From positions 256,001 to 320,000 of the IMG/VR virus record IMGVR_UViG_3300017700_000931: 64,000 bases of DNA; one strand, written 5' to 3'. Under the pieces are notes generated by a model. It was not told the origin of the DNA, made no database searches, and saw only the letters and a list, made by a program, of their open reading frames with translations. The number at the start of each line of letters is the position of its first letter. Positions within the stretch are counted from its first letter, which is position 1. This stretch comes from a virus (lineage: Duplodnaviria; Caudoviricetes). The position numbers and the translations under genes are program-made. Shown here piece after piece: positions 5,742 through 37,348 of this stretch.

Positions 5742-6554
5742 TTATTTGAAACGTTTCAAAATGTCCTTAACGCTTTCGCTTTTCAGGGCAATGTACAACT
5801 CAATCAATTTGGTTGCTTCGTCGCTTTTGTCCTCACGTTTGTCAAGGGCTTCAACAACCTCTTTCAATTTTTGCATTGGGCTTTTTGCTGTCAAAGTAGC
5901 AACGTGTTTTGTTGTCGCTTTTTTCGGTGCTTTGCCAGTTTCAACTGCCGTTGCTTTTGCTGAATCAATTGCCTCGGTAACAATTTTCAATTGCTCATCA
6001 GCATTTTTTGTTTGCTTCACAATTTGAACAACTGTACCACCAGAAATCAAACCTTCAATTACGAAGTTTTTAATTTGTTTCCCAACGTTGGCAAGTGACA
6101 ACAAGTTGTAAATGTGTGGAACTGACTTCGCAATTTTTTGTGAAATCTCTTCTGGTTTGTAGTGCATTGCAACAAGGCGTTTAATTGCCTCAGCTTGCTC
6201 CACTTCATTCAGGGCTTTTTGCCCCGTACCAGTCACAATCATTGTGAAAATCTGGTCTTCCTCATTCCCTGTGTAAGGCGCAACCTCAACGTAAGGAATT
6301 GACTCACCTCTTTTCAAAAGAATCTGAATCGCTGCGAAACGTCTGTGACCGTCAACCAATTCGTAGGTATCTTCACCACGAGTTTTTTTAGCCTTCAATG
6401 GAACTTCCAGACCAATTGAGGCAATTGAATCTGCTAGGGCTTCCAAATCACCCATGTCAAGACGCACGTTGAATCCCTCACGTACCACAATGTTGCGTGG
6501 GTCAACAAGCATTGTATCTTTTCTTTTTGTAACTAATACTGCTCCTTTTTTCAT
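5742..6554 (-). CDS. parB: ParB/RepB/Spo0J family protein (ParB N-terminal domain + HTH)
   Basis: FNVR, LADSI..GL..PL, YELVDGHRR, LNEVEQAEAIKRL and the HTH EEISQKIAKSVPHIYNLLSL. Confidence 0.85.
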   Translation of the reverse strand: MKKGAVLVTKRKDTMLVDPRNIVVREGFNVRLDMGDLEALADSIASIGLEVPLKAKKTRGEDTYELVDGHRRFAAIQILLKRGESIPYVEVAPYTGNEEDQIFTMIVTGTGQKALNEVEQAEAIKRLVAMHYKPEEISQKIAKSVPHIYNLLSLANVGKQIKNFVIEGLISGGTVVQIVKQTKNADEQLKIVTEAIDSAKATAVETGKAPKKATTKHVATLTAKSPMQKLKEVVEALDKREDKSDEATKLIELYIALKSESVKDILKRFK

Positions 6555-8778: not shown

Positions 8779-8891
8779 ATTGGTTTAGTTTGACGATACA
8801 AATATAATACTATATTTCTAATTGACCAAATAATATTATAATTATTTTCTTATTTATACTCATTCTAAATTAAAAAATAAATGCAAAAAAG

Positions 8892-8923
8892 TTTGGTGGA
8901 ACGAAATATTATGCTTACCTTTG
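8892..8923 (+). promoter_or_regulatory. plus-strand promoter with no downstream ORF
   Basis: TTTG 8892-8895, TACCTTTG 8916-8923, 20-nt spacer. Confidence 0.8.
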
Positions 8924-9000
8924 TCTTGTCGGTTGGAAACAGAGACAGGTCAGGTGCGACAATCCTGAGAGAGTAGACTCCGTCACGCCCTATAACCAAA
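8924..9000 (+). ncRNA. candidate small RNA, twin copy 1
   Basis: GC-rich island behind a promoter; shares GAGAC(A/G)GGTC and TGAGAGAGTAGACTCC with 10241-10312. Confidence 0.5.
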
Positions 9001-9080
9001 TCCACCCATTTTAAAAAAAGCTACAAAGGTAATACTTAATTTTGATATATCCTAATTATTTAACATTTACTTATTAACAC

Positions 9081-9111
9081 AAAAAAAGGGGTAGTTGTTG
9101 AAAACTACCCC
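9081..9111 (-). terminator. intrinsic terminator of the DUF932 gene
   Basis: GGGGTAGTT/AACTACCCC 9-bp stem then a 7-U run on the minus strand. Confidence 0.85.
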
Positions 9112-9129
9112 CTCAATAATTAGGAATTC

Positions 9130-10038
9130 TTAAATTTTAATTCCGGCGTAATCTAAGGCGAATGCCAGACTTTCTTGGTTGGTACGGTAGTTTGTACCAA
9201 CTGTCAAACTCTCAATTCGACCATTCTCACGTTTTGGTGCTGACTTGTCGTGCGTTGTCCAACGGGTTACTCCCGAATGAAGTCCCCAAAGGTTTTGCCC
9301 CTTTTGGTTCATCTCAATTTCAATGGCGTTGTATAATGACTCCATCGCATTCATTGAGCGGGTTGACTTGTCAATCAATTCGCTTGTCATTGTACGGTCA
9401 AAGCCTAAAATGTGCTTTACCATTTTGTTAGCCAATTCTTTGCTAACTTTGTTCGACTGGAACGCATTGTAAATCTCAATCATTCTCAGGCTCTCAGAAA
9501 GTGACAATTCAATCAATGAAGGAATCGTAGCCATTTTTTCAACCAAGTTAGCTGAATGTCTCCATTTAGCCTGACCAGAACGGTAGAAACGAAAGAACTG
9601 GTTTTGACATGACATTGTTAAGTCACCAATACCAACTGACAATCCGGTGCTACCGTCGTTAGAGTCAATAATGGTCACATAACGTTTAATGCTATCCTCA
9701 CCAACTTTTGACATACCGTCAACGGCTAATTGAATAAACACTTTACGACCACCATCAAGCGCACCTGCTTTTGAAACTGACAACTCACCGAATTTGTTCA
9801 TTCCTGTTAATACCAGTTCAACCAATTCGTCGTTTTGACTCACCACATACGAACCTTTAACAGTATTCAGAATCTCACCGCTCTTGTCATTGTATAGACC
9901 GAAATAATCGCTCTTTACATTATCCACGCTTTGAACACCCTCTGGTGAGGTAATAATACGTGGAGCAACCAATGGCAATTTTTCAATGCGGAAATCTAAA
10001 CCGAACTGAGCTAAAATTTGTTGTGCTTTTTCTTTCAT
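9130..10038 (-). CDS. DUF932 / LGT_TIGR03299-type phage-plasmid protein
   Basis: GLDF..EK.PL, Y.V.QN, AGAL.GGRKVF, DSNDGS, SCQNQ, RH, NLWGL..GVT motif order. Confidence 0.75.
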   Translation of the reverse strand: MKEKAQQILAQFGLDFRIEKLPLVAPRIITSPEGVQSVDNVKSDYFGLYNDKSGEILNTVKGSYVVSQNDELVELVLTGMNKFGELSVSKAGALDGGRKVFIQLAVDGMSKVGEDSIKRYVTIIDSNDGSTGLSVGIGDLTMSCQNQFFRFYRSGQAKWRHSANLVEKMATIPSLIELSLSESLRMIEIYNAFQSNKVSKELANKMVKHILGFDRTMTSELIDKSTRSMNAMESLYNAIEIEMNQKGQNLWGLHSGVTRWTTHDKSAPKRENGRIESLTVGTNYRTNQESLAFALDYAGIKI

Positions 10039-10208
10039 AATAAGGAGTTAATTTAAGTTAGTAATTTATTTGACTGGTACAAATATAAGATAGTATTTCC
10101 GAATAAACAAATATATTATAGTATATTTTCAATTTATTTTTAAAATCCTAACGTTTATGCGGGTTTGAGTTAGTGAAATAAAATAATACGAAAATATATG
10201 CTTTTTTA

Positions 10209-10240
10209 TTTGGTAGATTGAAATAAAGTTCTTATCTTTG
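10209..10240 (+). promoter_or_regulatory. plus-strand promoter with no downstream ORF
   Basis: TTTG 10209-10212, TATCTTTG 10233-10240. Confidence 0.8.
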
Positions 10241-10312
10241 TTTTGTCAGTGGTGAATAACTGAGACGGGTCGACCAGAAAAGTTGAGAGAGTAGACTCCA
10301 CTGTGCCTTATA
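10241..10312 (+). ncRNA. candidate small RNA, twin copy 2
   Basis: Homologous to 8924-9000; ends pair (CAGTGG 10247-10252 / CCACTG 10298-10303). Confidence 0.5.
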
Positions 10313-10427
10313 TTTTTTTACACATGAATTTTCGACCTGTATAATATTTGACATGACCAAATAATTTACACAAAAGTTATTAACAATTATTTTGTTAATA
10401 ACTTTGATGAAAAAAGTTACATAAAAA

Positions 10428-10459
10428 TTTGGTAGAACCGAATTAATGTATTATCTTTG
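10428..10459 (+). promoter_or_regulatory. plus-strand promoter with no downstream ORF
   Basis: TTTG 10428-10431, TATCTTTG 10452-10459. Confidence 0.8.
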
Positions 10460-11016
10460 TTATGTACATTCCATATCTGCATAAACGGCAGACAGCCACC
10501 CCCTACCCTTTACACTGGGTTTTAGGGGGTAGAGTCGTTACACCTCTTTTTTAGGGGGTACCGAAAGGAACCGTTACATACCTATGTTAATAGCCTGTTT
10601 TTGCCTTACTGCAAAGATACTAAAAATATCTGACAACTGCAAGGAATAGAGGATATTAGACCACGCTTTTTATAAAAATATAATTGCTCAAAAACTTGCA
10701 TATTTCAAAAAATTTGTGTAAAGTATTGAGCGTGTTTATGTTGTACTTCATATTTTTTAGAGGTATCCGGTGCATCACATATCCAATAAGCAGGGTTTTT
10801 GGTATAATTTACCACGATTTACCACTTTCTACCATTTAATGACAACGTGCTAACTCAAGTACAAAAAGGACGCATAACCTATCTGAATGCGGATGCCATA
10901 TTACACAAGATGTAGCACACAATGGGCCTTGAGCTGGGGTATACACAAATGTGTACTAGGGTATGTCATGGTACAGGGTGTCCTGTGGGATTTAGGGTAC
11001 ACAAATGTGTCCTTAC

Positions 11017-11253
11017 TTACTGTGACCCCCAAGCACAATAATGTTCTTCATTAACAAAAAATCCTTTAGATAGGTCTTCACCAAAATCAACGAAATTATC
11101 TTTAATATGTTCTATGGAAAAGAAGTATTGTTTAACCGGATTAGATTCATTAATTACATTATAATATAATTTACCATTAAGTGATTTAATAAATCTAGTT
11201 CCAGCTGGACAAGATGGTAAAGCCATATATAGTATTACTACATCAGGTAGCAT
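11017..11253 (-). CDS. LPxCPxG-family paralog 11
   Basis: LPSCPAGTRF...KQYFFS. Confidence 0.85.
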   Translation of the reverse strand: MLPDVVILYMALPSCPAGTRFIKSLNGKLYYNVINESNPVKQYFFSIEHIKDNFVDFGEDLSKGFFVNEEHYCAWGSQ

Positions 11254-11474
11254 TATAGGGATATGTATGGAGTATTATCATCGAAGAAGAAGTCATAGTT
11301 ATTGAGGATTTCTTCTCTGGTGAATGAGTAGTCTTTAAAGTTGTTATTGATTCTATCTTCATCGGATAGGATGAGATAATAGAATGATTGGTTAAGAGAT
11401 GCTTTGAAGAACATTCCGGCTGGGCAAGATGGGAGGTCTTTGAGCAGTTTAATATTTTGAGGGAATTGCATCAT
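11253..11474 (-). CDS. LPxCPxG-family paralog 10
   Basis: LPSCPAGMFF...KDYSFTREEILNNYDFF. Confidence 0.85.
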   Translation of the reverse strand: MMQFPQNIKLLKDLPSCPAGMFFKASLNQSFYYLILSDEDRINNNFKDYSFTREEILNNYDFFFDDNTPYISL

Positions 11475-11782
11475 AAGCTACAGAATGTATTAAACCATTT
11501 GGTATGAATATCTGCTGCATCTAGTGTATTTCCAAACGTTAAAAATTCAGCACTAAAATTATGTGAGAAGAATGTTGTTATTATGTCTGGCGTAATGATT
11601 GTGGATAATTCATTAATTGAAAAAAAGTATTGTTTTATTTCATTTGAACCCTCATTATAGTAGAAGTTACCATCGATGGTTTTAATGAATGATGTACCTG
11701 CTGGGCAGTTAGGTAGTTCTTTAACTAGGGTTAATATGCTAGGTTGTATTTTAAATTGCATCATAAGTTTGACCAACTCCAA
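11471..11782 (-). CDS. LPxCPxG-family paralog 9
   Basis: LPNCPAGTSF...KQYFFS. Confidence 0.85.
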   Translation of the reverse strand: MELVKLMMQFKIQPSILTLVKELPNCPAGTSFIKTIDGNFYYNEGSNEIKQYFFSINELSTIITPDIITTFFSHNFSAEFLTFGNTLDAADIHTKWFNTFCSL

Positions 11783-12075
11783 TTATCGGCAATATGTTTG
11801 AGAAAGCGTTCATGTGAAATATTACAATGCGTTGTATGGTGATTATTATATGCAGCATATGTAACTATTGTTGTAAAAAATGATTCTGTTACGTTTGTAC
11901 TAAGAGACTTTAATACTTCATCAATTGTAAATATATAATCCTTAATATCATTAGATGATTCATTAAAATAGAATTTATTATCTAATGATAAATAGAACTT
12001 TGTACCAACCGGACAAGATGGTAGAGACTTAAATAATATGAGTATATGAGGTAATGTCATTCGAGGTGTAGCCAA
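11761..12075 (-). CDS. LPxCPxG-family paralog 8
   Basis: LPSCPVGTKF...KDYIFTIDEV. Confidence 0.85.
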   Translation of the reverse strand: MATPRMTLPHILILFKSLPSCPVGTKFYLSLDNKFYFNESSNDIKDYIFTIDEVLKSLSTNVTESFFTTIVTYAAYNNHHTTHCNISHERFLKHIADNWSWSNL

Positions 12076-12365
12076 TTGCTATAGTAAGTGCGCCAAATTG
12101 CTTTATAATCTTCTCGACCAGATACGGTTTGATAAAACTCCATATTTTCATGAGTATCTTTAAATACAAAGAATGTTTTATCTAATATGGGTGACATGGC
12201 CATTAGGATTTCTTCTATTGTGAATACATATTGCTTGGTTGAATCCTCTGGGGTATTATAATACTGACTACCATCGAATGACTTAATGAACTTAGTGCCT
12301 ACTGGACAAGATGGAAGGTTCCTGTGCAATACTAGAATATGTGGTATGTATTTAGGTCTAATCAT
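12057..12365 (-). CDS. LPxCPxG-family paralog 7
   Basis: LPSCPVGTKF...KQYVFTIEEI. Confidence 0.85.
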   Translation of the reverse strand: MIRPKYIPHILVLHRNLPSCPVGTKFIKSFDGSQYYNTPEDSTKQYVFTIEEILMAMSPILDKTFFVFKDTHENMEFYQTVSGREDYKAIWRTYYSNWLHLE

Positions 12366-12622
12366 TATAGTGTATGATTAAAGAGTGTATCCATTATAGT
12401 AGATGAGACAATATAAGTTTTACCGAATGGTATGAAGAAATCTGGATTAGTTAGTATTTCTTCTCTAGAGAATATGTATTGTTTTTCTGATTGGGATGTT
12501 TCGTTTGTTATGTTATAGAAGAATTGCCCATCTAGGGTTATTTTGAAGATGGTTAATTTAGGGCAGCATGGCAAATCCTTGACCAATAAGGTTTCTGTGA
12601 AGGATATATCTCGTGTATTCAT
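12365..12622 (-). CDS. LPxCPxG-family paralog 6
   Basis: LPCCPKLTIF...KQYIFSREEILTNPDFF. Confidence 0.85.
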   Translation of the reverse strand: MNTRDISFTETLLVKDLPCCPKLTIFKITLDGQFFYNITNETSQSEKQYIFSREEILTNPDFFIPFGKTYIVSSTIMDTLFNHTL

Positions 12623-12661
12623 TGTTTTGTTGATGTTTGTGGTGTTATAGAAGAATAATGG

Positions 12662-13072
12662 TTATTTTAAGAAGGCAGTATGGGAAATCTGTATTCCAGA
12701 ATTAAAGCCAACACTTAATGAGTGTGACTTATTTTTTGTTTGATTAGGTTCATCCTCATATTCATCCCATTTAATATCATCGCTCATATGAAATGACTCA
12801 GGGTATCTAATCATTCGTTCCTTTATATCAGGGAATATTCTTTCCCAATCCGTTAGTACGCATCTGAACTTATAATGAATTAATGCCCCATGAAAGAAGA
12901 AGTCTGGATTATCTATTACCTCTTGTATTGTGAATGAATATTCTTTTATATTAGCTTCATCATCCGGCATGACAAGTGTATAGTGTTTTTCATCAAGGCT
13001 AAGGTTGAATTGGCTTAACCTAGGACAATTCGGTAGGCTTTTTAATAGCGTTATAGTTTTATCCAGCATCAT
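12662..13072 (-). CDS. LPxCPxG-family paralog 5
   Basis: LPNCPRLSQF...KEYSFTIQEVIDNPDFF. Confidence 0.85.
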   Translation of the reverse strand: MMLDKTITLLKSLPNCPRLSQFNLSLDEKHYTLVMPDDEANIKEYSFTIQEVIDNPDFFFHGALIHYKFRCVLTDWERIFPDIKERMIRYPESFHMSDDIKWDEYEDEPNQTKNKSHSLSVGFNSGIQISHTAFLK

Positions 13073-13370
13073 GAATAGATTTGAATAGGGTGTTTAAATC
13101 AAGACCCAGCGATGTATTAAAATATTTCTCTTCTGGTACTAGAGTACCTAATGCATTAGCCCAAACTAAAAGCCTTTTGTAAGTTGTTTTATCACCCATA
13201 TAAAAGAATTCTTTATTGGATTCAACTTCATCAATTGAAAATATGTATTGCTTTGTGGTATCATCAGGTTCATTATAATAATATTTCTCATCTAATGATA
13301 GATAGAATTCTGTCCCAAGTGGACAATTAGGTAACGATTGCTTTAGCGTTATGATTTGGTGCTTACTCAT
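13059..13370 (-). CDS. LPxCPxG-family paralog 4
   Basis: LPNCPLGTEF...KQYIFSIDEVESNKEFF. Confidence 0.85.
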   Translation of the reverse strand: MSKHQIITLKQSLPNCPLGTEFYLSLDEKYYYNEPDDTTKQYIFSIDEVESNKEFFYMGDKTTYKRLLVWANALGTLVPEEKYFNTSLGLDLNTLFKSIHDAG

Positions 13371-13698
13371 TTAAAAATCTTCTTCTATGTGATGGTGAAG
13401 CACCATATATTTCATTAAAAGCATCACCTCTATCATGATGAAGCCAGATTTCTTTATTTCCATGAAAAAAGAAAGCATTATTAAATATAACCTCATTAGG
13501 CAAGAACATATATTGTTTTATATTTCCCCTCATGTCATCCTCGATGAGTGGATTATAGTAACATGATTCATCTAGTGCTAGGACGAATGATTCACCTCTT
13601 GGGCAATTGGGTAGATTAACCATAAGGATTACTTCTTTGGGCAATTCGGTTAATTGTATGTCTTCTGGTTTCATTGGTCTGCAAGCCATTTGTTTCAT
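13363..13698 (-). CDS. LPxCPxG-family paralog 3
   Basis: LPNCPRGESF...KQYMFLPNEVIFNNAFF. Confidence 0.85.
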   Translation of the reverse strand: MKQMACRPMKPEDIQLTELPKEVILMVNLPNCPRGESFVLALDESCYYNPLIEDDMRGNIKQYMFLPNEVIFNNAFFFHGNKEIWLHHDRGDAFNEIYGASPSHRRRFLNE

Positions 13699-13985
13699 TG
13701 GTTTAGTACTTGTATTATTTGGTTAAGCATATGATTGATTCTTTGATTGGTATTATCATGAATATCAATTTCACCACATGGGTTCATGTTATATGATATG
13801 AAGAAATCTGGATTGGTTAGGATTTCTTCCATGGTAAAGAAATATTGTTTAAACTTATCATTAATGACTTCTTCATCTGTCATTATGTGATAATACTGAC
13901 TACCATCTAATGTGGCTCTAAATTCTCGGCCACTTGGACAAGACGGTAGACTTTTACATAGGATTAGGTGGTCAGGTAATTCCAT
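13695..13985 (-). CDS. LPxCPxG-family paralog 2 (probable start 13985)
   Basis: LPSCPSGREF...KQYFFTMEEILTNPDFF. Confidence 0.85.
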   Translation of the reverse strand: MELPDHLILCKSLPSCPSGREFRATLDGSQYYHIMTDEEVINDKFKQYFFTMEEILTNPDFFISYNMNPCGEIDIHDNTNQRINHMLNQIIQVLNQ

Positions 13986-15011
13986 TATATGTTTGTTCAT
14001 TAAGTAATAGTTGCTTAATAGAATACCTTCTAAAAAAACCATCAAGAAATTCTTTAAAGGCATCCTTATCACTATATATTAAAATTTGATTACCACAAAG
14101 AATAACATTATTTCTATGACGTATTTCCCACCTAATACTCATTGATGTTATAGATAATATTTTCACCTTTAATTTTAAGTTATGTTTCTTACCTACCTTA
14201 ATAATCAATTTAACCATAGATTGAGAGCTTTTAAAGTTTTTCATCTATCAAAGCATGCGTTAACCAGAAAGCAATTGAGGTTGCTTTGGCTAGGTTATAA
14301 TCGTTATATCTCATGAAGGCATTTTCATCCCAAGGTTCCGGCTCTGGGCTATCACCAATGAATGCTGTATTCTGCTGTATTGGTTTTATCCTGATAGGAT
14401 TTGCACATTGAAAGTAATTCATCAAGTGATTTTGACATTGGTTTTCGATTATCTGCATCAAATGCATCATAACCCCATCTACCTCTCATGAAGTTCATAA
14501 TATCTGTTGGGGTTCTGAAGATATCATCAGCTTTCTCAGTTCTTATAGCCAAACGAACATCATAACCATTTCTCTGATATTTTTCACCATCCGGCAGATA
14601 TAGTTGTTCCATTAAAGCATTTTGTGGTACTTCTGATGGCACTACAAGAAAATATGGTTTGTCGTATGTATCTGGGTGAACCTTTGATGCAATTGGGGCC
14701 AACTGGGAGTTCAGTGCTTCTTCTAGTTTGGTTAAACTTTCTTTCACCAAATCATCTAGTTTACCATACCAATTTTTATTATGTGGATTACTACCATATT
14801 CAAATTTTTCTAAGTCAATCCAATATTGATAGACAAATGAATGTGTTGGTTCGGAACAACCTGTTCTTTCGGTGATATTAGCGAATGACCAAACACCATC
14901 AGAATTGGTATGAGGTTTTAACACTAGGATATTTTCGTTTTGCATTTTTGGTGCAACCGGATTTGAACCTCTTACAGCACTTACTTCAAAATAGATGTAT
15001 TTAATCTTCAT
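13972..15011 (-). CDS. three unrelated hypothetical ORFs interrupting the array (13972-14244, 14231-14470, 14352-15011)
   Basis: ORF track; start of 14231-14470 is uncertain because it overlaps the upstream gene. Confidence 0.65.
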
Positions 15012-15339
15012 AATTTTCCTTTATGTTTTTCTTTCTGAATTCTTCAATATCTTCAGTCTTTATTTTACCAGCCGCTACATTCTTACCTAGGGCCTGAAGA
15101 TAACCTTCTTCTTCAATATCACCTAGGAAGAAAAATTCAGAATTATATACAACTTCTTTAACTGAGAAGATGTATGCTTTTAGCTTACCACTTATAGCTT
15201 CTTCATCAGTCATTGAGTGATAGTAATGATTGCCATCAACGGTTAGTTTAAACAATCGCCCAACCGGACAATTAGGTAATGCTTTTTTGACCATTACGAT
15301 TTTAGGTGGTTCAAGTAATTCTTTTGGAGGATTTGCCAT
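15001..15339 (-). CDS. LPxCPxG-family paralog 1
   Basis: LPNCPVGRLF...KAYIFSVKEVVYNSEFF. Confidence 0.85.
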   Translation of the reverse strand: MANPPKELLEPPKIVMVKKALPNCPVGRLFKLTVDGNHYYHSMTDEEAISGKLKAYIFSVKEVVYNSEFFFLGDIEEEGYLQALGKNVAAGKIKTEDIEEFRKKNIKENYED

Positions 15340-15340
15340 G

Positions 15341-17014
15341 TTATTCAGGTTTAAATTCTTTTGCGTCTAATAAATCTATTATGGAATCAAGGTGTTCGAG
15401 GTTTTCAATTACTGTTATGAGTTGTGGTTCGCCAACGCCATCATTAATATCAAATAGCTCGTGTGTATTGGTATTGTACATGTAATCCCAATTACCATAA
15501 ATGAATTCAATGTTATTACCTTTAAGGCAAACGAATCCACGTTCTTTGAGAATATCTGGTGTAATCATATTTTACAAAGATAAGAATTATAAATCATGTT
15601 TGACAGCAAAATCAAAAATATAATTTAAAAATAAATCACTAGTATCAGATGGTCCTTTACCAATTAATAGAATTGGAATCCACCATGTGATTGGTAGTAG
15701 AACAATGTATACCACGAAAATGATATAAATAATTCCCAGATATATTCGTTTAATTATCTTCATGTACAAACATTATAAATTGCAGCAATAAAAAAGCTAA
15801 TTATCATTCCTATTGCGATACCTAGTTTTAGTGTTGCTTTATCTTCTTCGGTAATATCTGGGACGACAATCCCATTTTCTTTAACGTATCGTGGTGGAAC
15901 AATAATTGTTTTGACTTGTGATTTAACATCATCTAAGCTAATATTGAATTTCTTTTCAATATCGGCCTTTGTACCATATATGGTTTTACCAATGTTTAAT
16001 TGATGAGCATCCTCATATACTACCATGAATTTATCCACGAAACCAGTTTCGATAACGTGTATTAATTCCGGCTCACCTTCCCATTGGAATGTTTTGCAAT
16101 TATTCTTGATTGGTATCCATTTAATATTTTCGTGCTCTTCCATGATGTCAAGTTAATATTACTTCTAGTTCGTGTCTCAATGCAATAAGTAGTGTCTCTT
16201 TATCCACTTCATAGCATTTTTTAGTTGTGTTAACACTGTTACGACTATCGCCGGAATGATAATATTTTTCACCTTGTCTTGGTATCACATCTAACATAAG
16301 GTCTAATGAATCTGATATATCAAATTCTTCTGAATCATTATACATTCTGTATGCCCATAATTCAGAAAACCATATACGTTTTACTTCATCAAATAATAGT
16401 TTATCAGGAAGACTATCAGACACTCTTTTAATGAACTCATCAATCTTAGCTCTTTTGAATTCAGTTGGGTCACATGGTTTAAAATGCTGTAGGTCCAAAT
16501 TATAATCTCTGTTAACATAGTTACCATTTTCATCAAAGAAGCAACTAATTGAGCCATATCCTTTAAAATATTCGAATTTAAAACCATGATATGTTGAAAT
16601 CTCAATTCTCTCATGGTATCTAGCAGCTACGCTAACTTCATCATATCCTTCAACTCTATGTGGATTCTTAGGCATAGCATCTTTAATACCTAATAAGATA
16701 TCATGTCCATCAGTTACGGTACCAAAGTTTTGTGTGAAGTAATCACCAACATAAAATTGTTTATTGATTTCCGTCAGCAATTTTTCTTTGGATGATGCTG
16801 GTTCAACAATGACATGTTTACCATGTCTATTTTTCACTAAGACTTCGGTATCACTAATGCGATTTATTACTTCACATTTACCTTGAAACATATCCTCTAT
16901 GATATTCTTATCTTCGATAACCCTAACGGCTTTAATTTTTGCTACCAATTCTTTATCAGTATTCTCAAATACTGAATAACCTTTTTGGTCAGCGTAATCC
17001 CCAATTCGTTTCAT
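15341..17014 (-). CDS. hypothetical proteins (15341-15568, 15587-15769 membrane, 15760-16143 C-terminal TM, 16148-17014)
   Basis: Closely packed co-oriented ORFs. Confidence 0.75.
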
Positions 17015-18943: not shown

Positions 18944-20578
18944 TTAATTAATACAATGAAATTCTTGAAGTATTGGTTTTAATGTTAATCCATTAATGTC
19001 ATTACTATACTCCAATAAATTAAGTTTAATATTTAAATCTTTAAATTTTTTGTTAATTTTATTAGTATAATCAATAACTTTATTTGGAAATTCTTCAGCT
19101 ACTAGATATCCATTATTTGAGTCCAATTCAATCATGTATTGTAATAATTGAGAAACATCTTTAACTTCTGCTTTATATAGTTTAACTTCCCACGGAATAT
19201 TATCTTCTTTGATGTATATATCTAATTTATTACCTGAACCAGACAAGACATATTCCTCCTTAGTTGAACCAATAATTGTTTTACCATAATACATACTACC
19301 AAAACTATTTAAACTTTGAGCGATTGTATCACGTAATTGATGTTCATCTGACATTTTTTGTTGTCTAATATATGGGTTAGATATCAAATTCATCCCACTT
19401 TTGTTGATGCTATTTTTAAATGATTTTGCTGATTCTTCATTATAAAATTTAAAATTATCTGAAGAACTAATTTTACCATTTTTCAAAAACAATTTTATTT
19501 GTTCTAGAATATTTAAAACATCATCACTTCTAATAATTCTATTTTTTGTAATAACAGTTTCCACACCATACCAACGTACTTGTCCTCGTAAAAATTGAGT
19601 CCAATTACTACCTGTATCATTAATAAAATCAACAACATGTTCTTCTATAAGAATGTCATAAATAAAAAAATCAAAACCACCATACTTAGCAGCAATATTA
19701 TATGGATAATTACTTCCTGATTTTAATAATTTTGGGTCCATATCAAGCATTTGATAATGCTTGATTCCTATAATATCATTTTTAGGTGAATAACCAAATT
19801 TTAATATTGCTTTAACATTACCACATGTGAACTCTTTACCATCAATTATAGGGTCTTCAATCTTTTTTGTCTTGTCAGCATCCCATTCTGGAGGATAATA
19901 ATATATTGGTTTAACACTATTGATTATTTCAGTCCTTATTTTTTCTTCATCAACAATTGTTAAGTTAAATTTGATTGAGGTATCAGTTAAAATTAATTGA
20001 TATTTTTTTCCTAAAATATTCTTCATTTGATTAATACCTTTATGAGTTGAAATTTTAAAAAATTTGTTCTTATCTTTTGAAACAAATATTTCAACTTCAG
20101 TTCCGTGGTCACCATCAAAATTAATAGGCGTTAGACTTATATCATCTCCAATACTAAATTCATCAATAGAATAACCATCTATTAATTTTATATGTTCTTC
20201 ATTAATAGCTTTTGTTTTAACTTCAAATTTTTCGCCTAAAAATAAAACACTAGATTTTAAACCAACATCATGTTCATTAATACTATTTTGAGTTTCCTTT
20301 GCGAATGGTGTAAGGGCCATATTTATTTCATGAGATGGTATCCCACACCCATTATCCTTTATAATAACTTTATCAACAACTTTAATATATTTGTCACCCT
20401 CCAATTCTGATTTAATGATAAACTTAAGTTCTATTGATAAATTATTAACTTTACTAGCGATAGAATTATTTATTAATTCATATATTGCTTCTTCTGGTGA
20501 CTCATATGGTGTTTTACTTAACCCCTTAAGTAAATTGACTGGTTTAGTACCTTTTATTTTAATTTGTGTTGGTTTCAT
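18944..20578 (-). CDS. GHKL (MORC/MutL/Hsp90-like) ATPase fused to a C-terminal PD-(D/E)XK-type nuclease
   Basis: EAIYELINNSI, IKDNGCGI, NEHDVGLKSS; C-terminal KLDIY...WEVK...DVSQLLQY. Confidence 0.75.
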   Translation of the reverse strand: MKPTQIKIKGTKPVNLLKGLSKTPYESPEEAIYELINNSIASKVNNLSIELKFIIKSELEGDKYIKVVDKVIIKDNGCGIPSHEINMALTPFAKETQNSINEHDVGLKSSVLFLGEKFEVKTKAINEEHIKLIDGYSIDEFSIGDDISLTPINFDGDHGTEVEIFVSKDKNKFFKISTHKGINQMKNILGKKYQLILTDTSIKFNLTIVDEEKIRTEIINSVKPIYYYPPEWDADKTKKIEDPIIDGKEFTCGNVKAILKFGYSPKNDIIGIKHYQMLDMDPKLLKSGSNYPYNIAAKYGGFDFFIYDILIEEHVVDFINDTGSNWTQFLRGQVRWYGVETVITKNRIIRSDDVLNILEQIKLFLKNGKISSSDNFKFYNEESAKSFKNSINKSGMNLISNPYIRQQKMSDEHQLRDTIAQSLNSFGSMYYGKTIIGSTKEEYVLSGSGNKLDIYIKEDNIPWEVKLYKAEVKDVSQLLQYMIELDSNNGYLVAEEFPNKVIDYTNKINKKFKDLNIKLNLLEYSNDINGLTLKPILQEFHCIN

Positions 20579-27349: not shown

Positions 27350-27401
27350 AATAAAAGCAAAGATAGGAAATAAATTCCTATTTAACAAATTAAATTAAAA
27401 A

Positions 27402-37281: not shown

Positions 37282-37348
37282 ATATAAAATTATTTGGTCA
37301 ATCCAAATTATTGTATTATATTTGTGATGTCATTAAAAACCAACCATC

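What the first reader, a model, noticed from the sequence alone, without database searches (positions are those of the whole stretch)
11017..15339. Array of 11 paralogs sharing an LPxCPxG domain with unrelated C-terminal tails
Seen: ten consecutive genes with mostly overlapping stops and starts (11017-13985) and one more at 15001-15339 share a ~60-aa domain: L-x-K-x-LP-x-CP-x-G-x-x-F-x-x-S/T-x-D-x-x-x-YY...K-x-Y-x-F-x-x-x-E-x-x-x-N-x-x-FF. LPxCP is invariant in all 11; two have L instead of G. Tails run from a few to ~75 aa with no mutual similarity, and the DNA copies are strongly diverged, so the expansion is old and retained. I do not recognise the family. Inference: a constant fold carrying variable specificity tails (anti-defence or host-protein-binding repertoire) or subunits of a hetero-oligomer; the invariant Cys may bind metal or be redox-active.
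Basis: partly seen in the sequence, partly recalled or inferred. Interest (0 to 1): 0.85.

Follow-up and report, generated by a model that had tools for sequence, protein, structure and literature searches.

The report
Eleven-gene small-protein family in jumbo phage
A 362-kb phage, probably of a Bacteroidota host, carries eleven neighbouring genes for small proteins that share a compact, undescribed beta-barrel domain and end in different tails. All copies are kept by selection, but what they do is untested.

Summary
Eleven minus-strand genes (ten at 11017-13985, one at 15001-15339) share a ~60-residue N-terminal LPxCPxG domain. Core identity is 33-55%, and the tails (10-77 aa) show no detectable similarity.

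This is the only paralog family with more than two members among about 555 ORFs of a complete 362.5-kb T4-like jumbo phage. The phage uses Bacteroidota-type promoters.

The domain matches nothing in Pfam, PHROGs, NCBIfam, PADLOC or the PDB by sequence. It also matches no GenBank phage record. About 80 metagenomic clusters carry it, normally once per phage, alone or followed by unrelated tails.

AlphaFold models (pLDDT 87) give a small SH3-like beta-barrel. The nearest predicted shape is the viral DUF7399, with no sequence link.

Conserved residues are hydrophobic or turn-forming. The "invariant" Cys is Leu or Tyr in four distant members, so it is structural rather than catalytic or metal-binding.

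Each copy has a positional ortholog in two related phages. Pooled dN/dS is 0.27 for cores and 0.38 for tails. Copies are gained, lost, fused or disrupted between relatives.

My best reading, at moderate confidence, is a birth-and-death repertoire of small non-enzymatic binding proteins aimed at host or defence targets. Function is untested. The scan has logged similar orphan paralog arrays in other jumbo phages.

The parts
11017..11253 (-). W1, 78 aa: LPxCPxG core plus a 12-aa tail. This is the last gene of the array.
   Evidence: Orthologs are in L001 and L003. The L001 ortholog begins like W3 (MQFKI), which suggests a W3/W1 recombinant.
11253..11474 (-). W2, 73 aa: nearly core only.
   Evidence: No ortholog in L001 or L003.
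11471..11764 (-). W3, 97 aa from the ATG (103 aa from the TTG at 11782).
   Evidence: No ortholog in L001 or L003.
11761..12060 (-). W4, 99 aa from the ATG (104 aa from the TTG at 12075).
   Evidence: A diverged ortholog is present in L001 and absent from L003.
12057..12365 (-). W5, 102 aa.
   Evidence: Orthologs are in L001 and L003; core dN/dS is 0.09-0.14.
12365..12622 (-). W6, 85 aa, with motif LPCCPKL (L in place of G).
12662..13072 (-). W7, 136 aa, with motif LPNCPRL and the longest tail (77 aa).
   Evidence: An ortholog is in L003. In L001 its 5' part lies in a ~290-bp inverted segment.
13059..13370 (-). W8, 103 aa.
   Evidence: An ortholog is in L003. The L001 ortholog is cut short by the inversion.
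13363..13698 (-). W9, 111 aa, with a 25-aa N-terminal extension before the core.
13695..13985 (-). W10, 96 aa from the ATG (the frame is open up to the GTG at 14072). This copy was modelled with AlphaFold2: a beta-rich core plus a beta-hairpin and a C-terminal helix.
   Evidence: (P0022). The tail is more conserved than the core against L003 (dN 0.037 against 0.193). It groups with the widespread single-copy clade.
15001..15339 (-). W11, 112 aa. It is separated from the other ten and is closest to the widespread single-copy form.
13972..14244 (-). A 90-aa non-family ORF just upstream of W10, conserved in L001.
   Evidence: No family profile hit.
14352..15011 (-). A 219-aa ORF specific to this phage, lying between W11 and W10. 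Related phages have an extra family copy (X1) and the 5' part of a 152-aa gene at this position.
   Evidence: No Pfam, PHROGs or PADLOC hit. Window 14253-14369 is the leftover 3' end of the 152-aa gene.
27358..27389 (-). The nearest upstream consensus Bacteroidota-type promoter. About 45 tightly packed genes (gaps of 39 nt or less, with a few larger exceptions) follow it down to the stop codon of W1.

Best explanation
The array is a lineage-specific, tandem expansion of a small phage-only protein family. The family is defined by a ~60-residue N-terminal 'LPxCPxG' domain that is predicted to fold as an SH3-like beta-barrel. The domain is a non-enzymatic scaffold: its conserved residues form the hydrophobic core and a Pro/Gly turn. 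Each paralog keeps its own conserved surface and C-terminal tail. The genes lie at the distal end of a long, tightly packed unit in an accessory-gene region driven by host-type (Bacteroidota sigma-A form) promoters. I infer that they are soluble intracellular proteins, each binding a different host, defence or phage partner, and together forming a host-takeover or counter-defence repertoire. The array evolves by birth and death through recombination between copies (gain, loss, chimeras, fusion, disruption), while retained copies are under purifying selection. Shown here: the genes are real, the family is defined, the fold class is predicted, selection is purifying, copies turn over, and the family is restricted to phages. 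Inferred only: the binding function, the targets and the timing of expression.
For: There are 11 copies, and this is the only paralog family with more than two members in the genome. The family is absent from Pfam, PHROGs, NCBIfam, PADLOC, PDB sequences, 50,697 GenBank phage records, IMG/VR pattern scans and one genome for each of 185,579 species. About 80 metagenomic clusters carry it. These are single-copy members in large T4-like phage contigs, sitting among runs of small unknown ORFs. Two AlphaFold2 models have pLDDT 87 and show five strands plus short helices. Their neighbours are SH3, KOW and RecD-SH3 domains at Z 4.2 or below, and viral DUF7399 at TM 0.55-0.69. Nearly invariant positions are L, LP.CP.G, F, Y.F and F, and the Cys is replaced by L or Y in 4 members. 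There are no transmembrane segments. Core identity within ortholog groups averages 77%, against 41% between paralogs. Orthologs pair with strong support in the tree. Pooled dN/dS is 0.27 for cores and 0.38 for tails. Copy content differs between the window, L001 and L003, and P0020 in L004 fuses two domains in one ORF. There are 34 Bacteroidota-type promoters in the window against 6.5 expected, and no T4-type late promoter enrichment. The -7 box consensus is taken from PMC9723704.
Against: No neighbour or fusion partner of known function points to a target. No consensus promoter lies within 12 kb upstream of the array, so early expression is assumed rather than shown. A subset of single-copy relatives is strongly basic (pI 9.4-10), which fits nucleic-acid binding better than protein binding. 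Fold matches are weak and generic.
Confidence: 0.42

Rival explanations
1. The domain is a small nucleic-acid-binding module (working like Sso7d, KOW or the RecD SH3 domain), and the copies are DNA- or RNA-binding regulators or chromatin-like proteins with different specificities.
For: Several single-copy relatives are very basic: net charge +5 to +10 in 55-80 aa, pI 9.4-10. The best solved structural neighbours include nucleic-acid-contacting SH3-like domains: the Hpy99I N-domain, the RecD SH3 and Spt5 KOW. Some relatives add coiled-coil, Cys-rich or helix-hairpin-like tails.
Against: All eleven window copies are acidic to neutral, with pI 4.4-6.4. The family's median domain pI is 5.8. No conserved basic residues exist apart from one Lys. 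Structural Z-scores of 4.2 or below are at background level.
Confidence: 0.17
2. The paralogs are subunits of one hetero-oligomer, for example an Sm-like ring built from SH3-like barrels.
For: The genes overlap and are probably translationally coupled. One relative (P0020, L004) fuses two domains in one ORF. Sm/LSm paralogs with a related barrel form hetero-heptamers (established knowledge).
Against: Close relatives carry different sets. W2 and W3 occur only here, W4 is missing in L003, the extra copies X1 and X2 occur only in the relatives, and two copies are disrupted in L001. Most phages with the family have one copy. The tails are unrelated. No complex test could be run.
Confidence: 0.1
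3. The proteins are packaged or ejected virion proteins, comparable to the polymorphic internal-protein loci of T-even phages. In this reading the shared domain would serve as the packaging or docking handle and the tails as cargo.
For: The phage has a T4-type large terminase. T-even internal-protein loci are polymorphic sets of small proteins sharing an N-terminal targeting part (established knowledge). Here too the N-terminal part is constant and the C-terminal part variable.
Against: The extreme N-termini are variable in length and sequence. No shared short targeting peptide or consistent L/I-x-E cleavage site is present. The array lies in a region of host-type promoters with no late-promoter motif and not beside head genes.
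Confidence: 0.1
4. Most copies are decaying duplicates without function.
For: The relative L001 carries two disrupted copies. One ortholog pair (W6/A6 core) gives dN/dS 1.26, but on very few changes.
Against: All 11 frames in the window are intact. Pooled dN/dS is 0.27 and 0.38. Paralogs are older than the split of three phages, yet their orthologs stay 58-95% identical in the core.
Confidence: 0.04

Closest known systems
Pfam DUF7399 (PF24132), a viral domain of unknown function
   Same: It is the best structural neighbour of both models among predicted structures: TM 0.55 over 72 residues for W10 and TM 0.69 over 63 of 65 residues for P0013. The Atlas's own model of W11 gives TM 0.50. Its members are mostly from tailed phages.
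   Different: There is no sequence relationship. The DUF7399 profile finds nothing in this genome at E up to 10, and no family member hits it in Pfam scans. DUF7399 has no known function, and no paper in the library mentions it.
SH3-like small beta-barrels (SH3, KOW of Spt5/NusG, RecD/RecD2 SH3_13, Tudor/PWWP, DUF4926, DUF1653)
   Same: Similar size (~60 aa) and a five-strand layout. Nearly all weak structural hits belong to this class.
   Different: Z is at most 4.2 and Foldseek E is at least 0.04, which is background level. The LPxCPxG turn and the two short helices are not features of these families. There is no sequence similarity.
Hyperplastic regions and polymorphic internal-protein loci of T4-type phages
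   Same: Variable blocks of small, mostly orphan genes lie between conserved modules and are shuffled by recombination between close relatives (PMC4122927, PMC2839356, seen). Here too, gene content differs among near relatives and a homing HNH gene is present or absent next to the array.
   Different: Those regions hold unrelated genes rather than eleven paralogs of one domain. No capsid-targeting peptide is shared.
Other tandem orphan-paralog arrays in jumbo phages logged by this scan (e1-306069, e1-3285843, e1-161172)
   Same: They are head-to-tail arrays of diverged small paralogs with one constant part and variable remainders, in large phage genomes, with function unknown.
   Different: The protein families are different and show no sequence link; a lookup with a family member found no look-alike in other windows. 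In the window's lineage the constant part is a ~60-aa folded N-terminal domain that also occurs as a single-copy gene in many other phages.

Membership tests
LPxCPxG-domain family (defined here; no database accession) | A ~60-aa domain matched by the family profile, with L-P-x-C-P, F, K-x-Y-x-F and a terminal aromatic pair | tested here: met
   All 11 copies hit the profile at E 1e-25 to 3e-33. The motif columns are invariant. 84 clusters in 1.84 billion representatives reach E <= 1e-3; one of them, P0058, is a false repeat-protein hit.
Pfam DUF7399 (PF24132) | Profile match at or above the gathering score (27 bits) | tested here: not met
   No match in the whole genome at E <= 10, and none in the Pfam scans of 10 window copies or of all 91 alignment members, W10 included.
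Pfam DUF7399 (PF24132) | Shared three-dimensional shape | tested here: inconclusive
   TM 0.50-0.69 between predicted models only. For a short domain such values can arise from a common barrel.
SH3-like beta-barrel fold class | A five-stranded partly open barrel with a clear structural match to solved members | tested here: inconclusive
   Strand order in the models fits. The best Z is only 4.0-4.2, and Foldseek gives no hit at E <= 0.001.
T-even internal proteins (IPI-III type) | A shared short N-terminal capsid-targeting sequence ending at an L/I-x-E protease site | tested here: not met
   The N-termini before the domain vary from about 7 to 28 residues and do not align. L-x-E is seen in only two copies, W9 and W11.
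T-even internal proteins (IPI-III type) | Presence inside the virion | not testable with these tools
   This needs virion proteomics.
Sm/LSm-type hetero-oligomeric rings | Subunits assemble through edge strands into a ring of fixed composition | not testable with these tools
The variable copy sets among relatives argue against a fixed composition.
Sso7d/Cren7-type basic DNA-binding barrels | A strongly basic, Lys-rich surface | tested here: not met
   Window copies have pI 4.4-6.4. Only a subset of distant single-copy members is basic.
Known defence-system proteins (PADLOC-DB) | Profile match | tested here: not met
   No hit for W7, W11 or their neighbours. No anti-defence library was available.
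Metal-binding or redox Cys motif proteins | Cys (with further ligands) strictly conserved | tested here: not met
   There is a single conserved Cys and no conserved His or second Cys. Leu or Tyr replaces it in P0066, P0076, P0091 and P0083.

The most novel reading that the evidence does not exclude
The LPxCPxG barrel is a phage-specific, evolvable binding scaffold. The eleven copies would then be a birth-and-death repertoire of small inhibitors, each neutralising a different host defence or hub protein. That would make the array a phage counterpart of the host-range multigene families of poxviruses and giant viruses.
Probability: 0.3. Interest if true: 0.7.

Novelty: new variant of a known kind. 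Interest (0 to 1): 0.5.

Why it matters
Large phages devote much of their coding capacity to small orphan genes, and multi-copy families are the most tractable entry point because selection has kept many variants of one fold. This array defines a clean, previously undescribed domain family. It comes with a confident structural model, a clear ancestral (single-copy) form and a documented expansion. It also has natural knock-outs and chimeras in close relatives. If the copies prove to be binders of host or defence proteins, they would give a set of new inhibitors for Bacteroidota biology, where few phage-host tools exist, and a small stable scaffold that tolerates varied surfaces and tails. If they are nucleic-acid binders or one complex, the family would still be a new phage module. 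For now it is an orphan family of unknown function, and similar arrays exist in other jumbo phages.

Tried and rejected
- **Library searches with no result:** Pfam, PHROGs, NCBIfam and PADLOC gave no credible hit. A PDB sequence profile search gave only chance-level hits.
- **Phage and genome collections:** blastn and tblastn against 50,697 GenBank phage records found nothing. Pattern scans of IMG/VR and of GTDB species genomes found nothing (searches failed, 15, 44, 45). A first metagenome scan with W10 orthologs found nothing; the second, with the single-copy clade, gave 13 loci.
- **Structure searches:** Foldseek against PDB, BFVD and AFDB gave no hit at E <= 0.001. VIA-align reached Z of at most 4.2. 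The Atlas feature search gave no usable named hit.
- **Hidden or frame-shifted copies in the tails:** none found.
- **Tail-to-tail similarity:** none found.
- **T4 late promoter TATAAATA:** not enriched.
- **Sigma-70 promoter and terminator scans of the array:** at shuffle level.
- **Rfam over 8800-15600:** nothing.
- **Metal or redox role of the Cys:** rejected.
- **Odd GC skew as foreign origin:** W1-W10 have coding-strand skew -0.14 against +0.11 to +0.17 in neighbours. This is at least partly explained by amino-acid composition: more F, P, S, T, N, H, C and fewer K, E, G, V. I do not read it as evidence of transfer.
- **General DNA-binding charge signature:** rejected for the window copies.
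- **Literature:** no paper mentions DUF7399 or matches the query 'jumbo phage + paralogous + tandem + gene family'.
Full report
**What is there.** The window is bases 256001-320000 of a complete 362,532-bp virus record with direct terminal repeats. Its GC content is about 33%.

Ten are consecutive (11017-13985). Their stops and starts overlap by 1-14 nt, apart from one 39-nt gap. The eleventh (15001-15339) is separated from them by three unrelated ORFs.

Their alignment shows an N-terminal domain of about 60 residues with L, P, C, P, F, K-x-Y-x-F and FF invariant. Two copies have Leu at the Gly position.

A profile of the family finds exactly these eleven places in the whole genome, at E 1e-25 to 3e-33. 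A six-frame scan finds no decayed or frame-shifted extra copies. Core identity between copies is 33-55%.

The tails after the FF motif are 10-77 aa. They show no pairwise similarity beyond chance: the best z is 3.05 among 55 pairs.

An all-against-all comparison of about 555 ORFs shows that this is the only paralog family with more than two members in the genome. A Logan contig from a different run (L008) is 100% identical over 14,870 nt spanning the array.

**The phage and the transcription context.** The large terminase is of the T4 type. It is at most 30% identical to those of Flavobacterium phage immuto and an uncultured 484-kb phage.

The window holds 34 matches to TTTG-N17-23-TAnnTTTG, against 6.5 expected, and they share a much longer consensus. 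TAnnTTTG is the -7 box of sigma-A in flavobacteria (PMC9723704). A Bacteroidota host is therefore likely.

On the minus strand no such promoter lies between 10111 and 27358. From the promoter at 27358-27389, about 45 genes follow down to the stop codon of W1, mostly with gaps of 39 nt or less. The array thus looks like the distal part of a roughly 16-kb unit of accessory genes. Nearly all of these genes are of unknown function. The T4 late-promoter motif is not enriched.

Co-transcription and early timing are inferences.

**The family outside this genome.** No Pfam, PHROGs, NCBIfam or PADLOC model matches. Neither does any solved-structure sequence. Searches of 50,697 GenBank phage records, IMG/VR pattern scans and one genome for each of 185,579 prokaryote species also found nothing.

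An exhaustive profile search of 1.84 billion cluster representatives finds 84 clusters at E <= 1e-3. One of them is a false repeat-protein hit. The rest are 55-253 aa. The domain usually sits at the N-terminus, either alone (55-85 aa) or followed by unrelated extensions. A few extensions look coiled-coil or Cys-rich.

Fifteen loci of this wider clade each hold a single copy. They lie among long runs of small unknown ORFs. One locus is in a 215-kb contig that also carries ribonucleotide reductase and an intein-bearing T4-type terminase. The usual state is therefore one copy per large T4-like phage, and the window's lineage has an expansion.

**Fold.** AlphaFold2 models of W10 (96 aa) and of a 65-aa single-copy member both reach pLDDT 87 and pTM 0.67. 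Both show the same order of elements: strand, LPxCPxG loop, two strands, short helix, strand, helix, strand.

No library gives a significant match. Foldseek E is at least 0.04 and VIA-align Z is at most 4.2. Almost all weak hits are SH3-like barrels: SH3, Spt5 KOW, RecD SH3, Tudor/PWWP, DUF4926 and DUF1653.

The nearest predicted shape is the viral DUF7399, at TM 0.55, 0.50 and 0.69 in three searches. Its profile finds nothing in this genome. I therefore call the fold SH3-like with moderate confidence and do not file the family under any known family.

**What the conserved residues say.** Across 91 aligned members the nearly invariant positions are L, L, P, C, P, G, F, Y, F and F. None of these is a typical catalytic residue.

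The Cys is the only conserved Cys or His. It is Leu in three distant members and Tyr in one. This fits a buried packing residue within a Pro-flanked turn, and not a metal ligand or redox centre.

The window proteins have no hydrophobic segment long enough for a membrane span. They are acidic to neutral, with pI 4.4-6.4. Some single-copy relatives are very basic (pI 9.4-10), but the family's median domain pI is 5.8.

**Evolution.** Two related phages were recovered. L001 is about 87-95% identical in DNA to the window. L003 is about 74-94% identical. In both, the array lies in the same place, just upstream of a DUF932 gene.

In a maximum-likelihood tree of the cores, every window copy that has a counterpart pairs with its positional ortholog, mostly with starred support. 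The duplications are therefore older than the split of the three phages.

W10 and W11 group with the widespread single-copy clade (support 94/82) and look closest to the ancestral form. W1, W3, W4 and W5, which lie close together at the distal end of the array (only W2 interrupts them), fall in one starred clade that also takes in one L004 copy.

Core identity averages 77% within ortholog groups and 41% between paralogs. Nei-Gojobori dN/dS pooled over the window-against-relative pairs is 0.27 for cores (976 codons) and 0.38 for tails (436 codons). These pairs are not all independent. For W10 the tail is more conserved than the core. The tails are therefore selected sequence and not read-through debris.

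**Turnover between relatives.**
- W2 and W3 occur only in the window.
- The W1 ortholog of L001 begins like W3, as expected from recombination between W3 and W1.
- W4 is missing from L003.
- Two further copies exist only in the relatives: X1, with IPSC[LM] instead of LPxCP, and X2, whose domain is split by an insertion.
- At the position of X1 the window carries an unrelated 219-aa ORF, plus the leftover 3' end of a 152-aa gene.
- In L001 a segment of about 290 bp spanning the end of W8 and the start of W7 is inverted and breaks both genes. The resulting truncated protein is on record from two Logan contigs.
- A short contig from a more distant relative (L004) packs five domains into 1.5 kb. 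Two of them are fused in one ORF.

**How it most likely works.** The shown facts are these:
- a stable small fold whose conserved residues are structural;
- paralog-specific surfaces and tails under purifying selection;
- restriction to phages;
- placement among accessory genes behind host-type promoters;
- rapid gain and loss of copies.

The reading that fits these best is a repertoire of small non-enzymatic binding proteins. Each would have its own target in the host, in host defence or in the phage's own machinery. The set would be renewed by unequal recombination. I put this at about 0.4.

The rivals are as follows:
- **Nucleic-acid binding (0.17).** Basic relatives and DNA-contacting SH3-like neighbours support it. 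The acidity of all window copies counts against it.
- **One hetero-oligomer (0.1).** Overlapping genes and one two-domain fusion support it. Variable copy sets and single-copy relatives count against it.
- **Packaged internal proteins (0.1).** The T4-like background supports it. The lack of a shared targeting peptide and of a late context counts against it.
- **Decaying duplicates (0.04).** The dN/dS values count against it.

**Novelty and score.** The domain family is undescribed, and its expansion is clean and well supported. However, tandem arrays of orphan paralogs in jumbo phages are a recurring pattern; this scan alone has logged several. Plastic regions of small genes are also a known feature of T4-type genomes (PMC4122927 and PMC2839356). 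No function is established.

I rate it a new variant of a known kind, with interest 0.5.

Noticed in passing
window 10039-11016; L001 12792-13151: A stretch of about 980 bp with no ORF of 60 aa or more lies between W1 and the DUF932 gene and is 92% conserved in L001. In L001 a 119-aa Cys/His-rich HNH-like gene sits in a 363-bp insert (L001 12781-13143) at the point matching window 10387-10392, which looks like a mobile homing-endonuclease insertion. Rfam finds nothing in this stretch.
   Followed up: partly
L001 about 10500-10790 (corresponds to window 12912-13200): An in-place inversion of about 290 bp spans the 3' end of the W8 ortholog and the first 53 codons of the W7 ortholog and breaks both genes. 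The truncated W8-type protein (P0026) is on record from two Logan contigs. This could be a real polymorphism or a shared assembly error. The window and its 100%-identical copy L008 are not inverted.
   Followed up: partly
window 14231-15011: The 219-aa ORF (14352-15011) is absent from L001 and L003. It replaces an extra family copy and the 5' part of a 152-aa gene. The last ~117 nt of that gene survive at 14253-14369 inside a 79-aa ORF that overlaps the end of the 219-aa ORF. The 219-aa ORF has no hit in Pfam, PHROGs or PADLOC.
   Followed up: partly
window 11017-13985: The coding-strand GC skew of W1-W10 is -0.14, while W11 and all neighbouring genes have +0.11 to +0.17. The shift is seen at all three codon positions. 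It is at least partly due to amino-acid composition (rich in F, P, S, T, N, H, C; poor in K, E, G, V).
   Followed up: partly
window, 34 sites (for example 35-66, 8799-8830, 27358-27389, 37293-37324): There is a highly uniform promoter of the Bacteroidota form, roughly TTTGGT.GA...AAAT....T.TTAT.TTTG, at 34 sites against 6.5 expected. Sites face leftward below about 36 kb and rightward above. They are dense in 1-10 kb and absent from the minus strand of 10.1-27.3 kb.
   Followed up: partly
window 18944-20578: The largest ORF of the unit (544 aa) has a GHKL-type ATPase domain (HATPase_c_3, E 3e-11) and otherwise no recognised domains. It has no PADLOC hit.
   Followed up: no
window 9130-10038 and 5742-6554: A DUF932-family gene (per the Pfam annotation of its orthologs in L001 and L003; phrog_1221) and a ParB-like gene (phrog_1033) lie just downstream of the array. 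The DUF932 gene is the conserved right-hand anchor of the array in all relatives.
   Followed up: no
L004 19-684 (P0020): A 221-aa ORF on a 1.5-kb NCBI metagenome contig contains two LPxCP-type domains in one frame and is followed by three more copies. It is either a natural fusion of neighbouring paralogs or a lost stop codon.
   Followed up: partly
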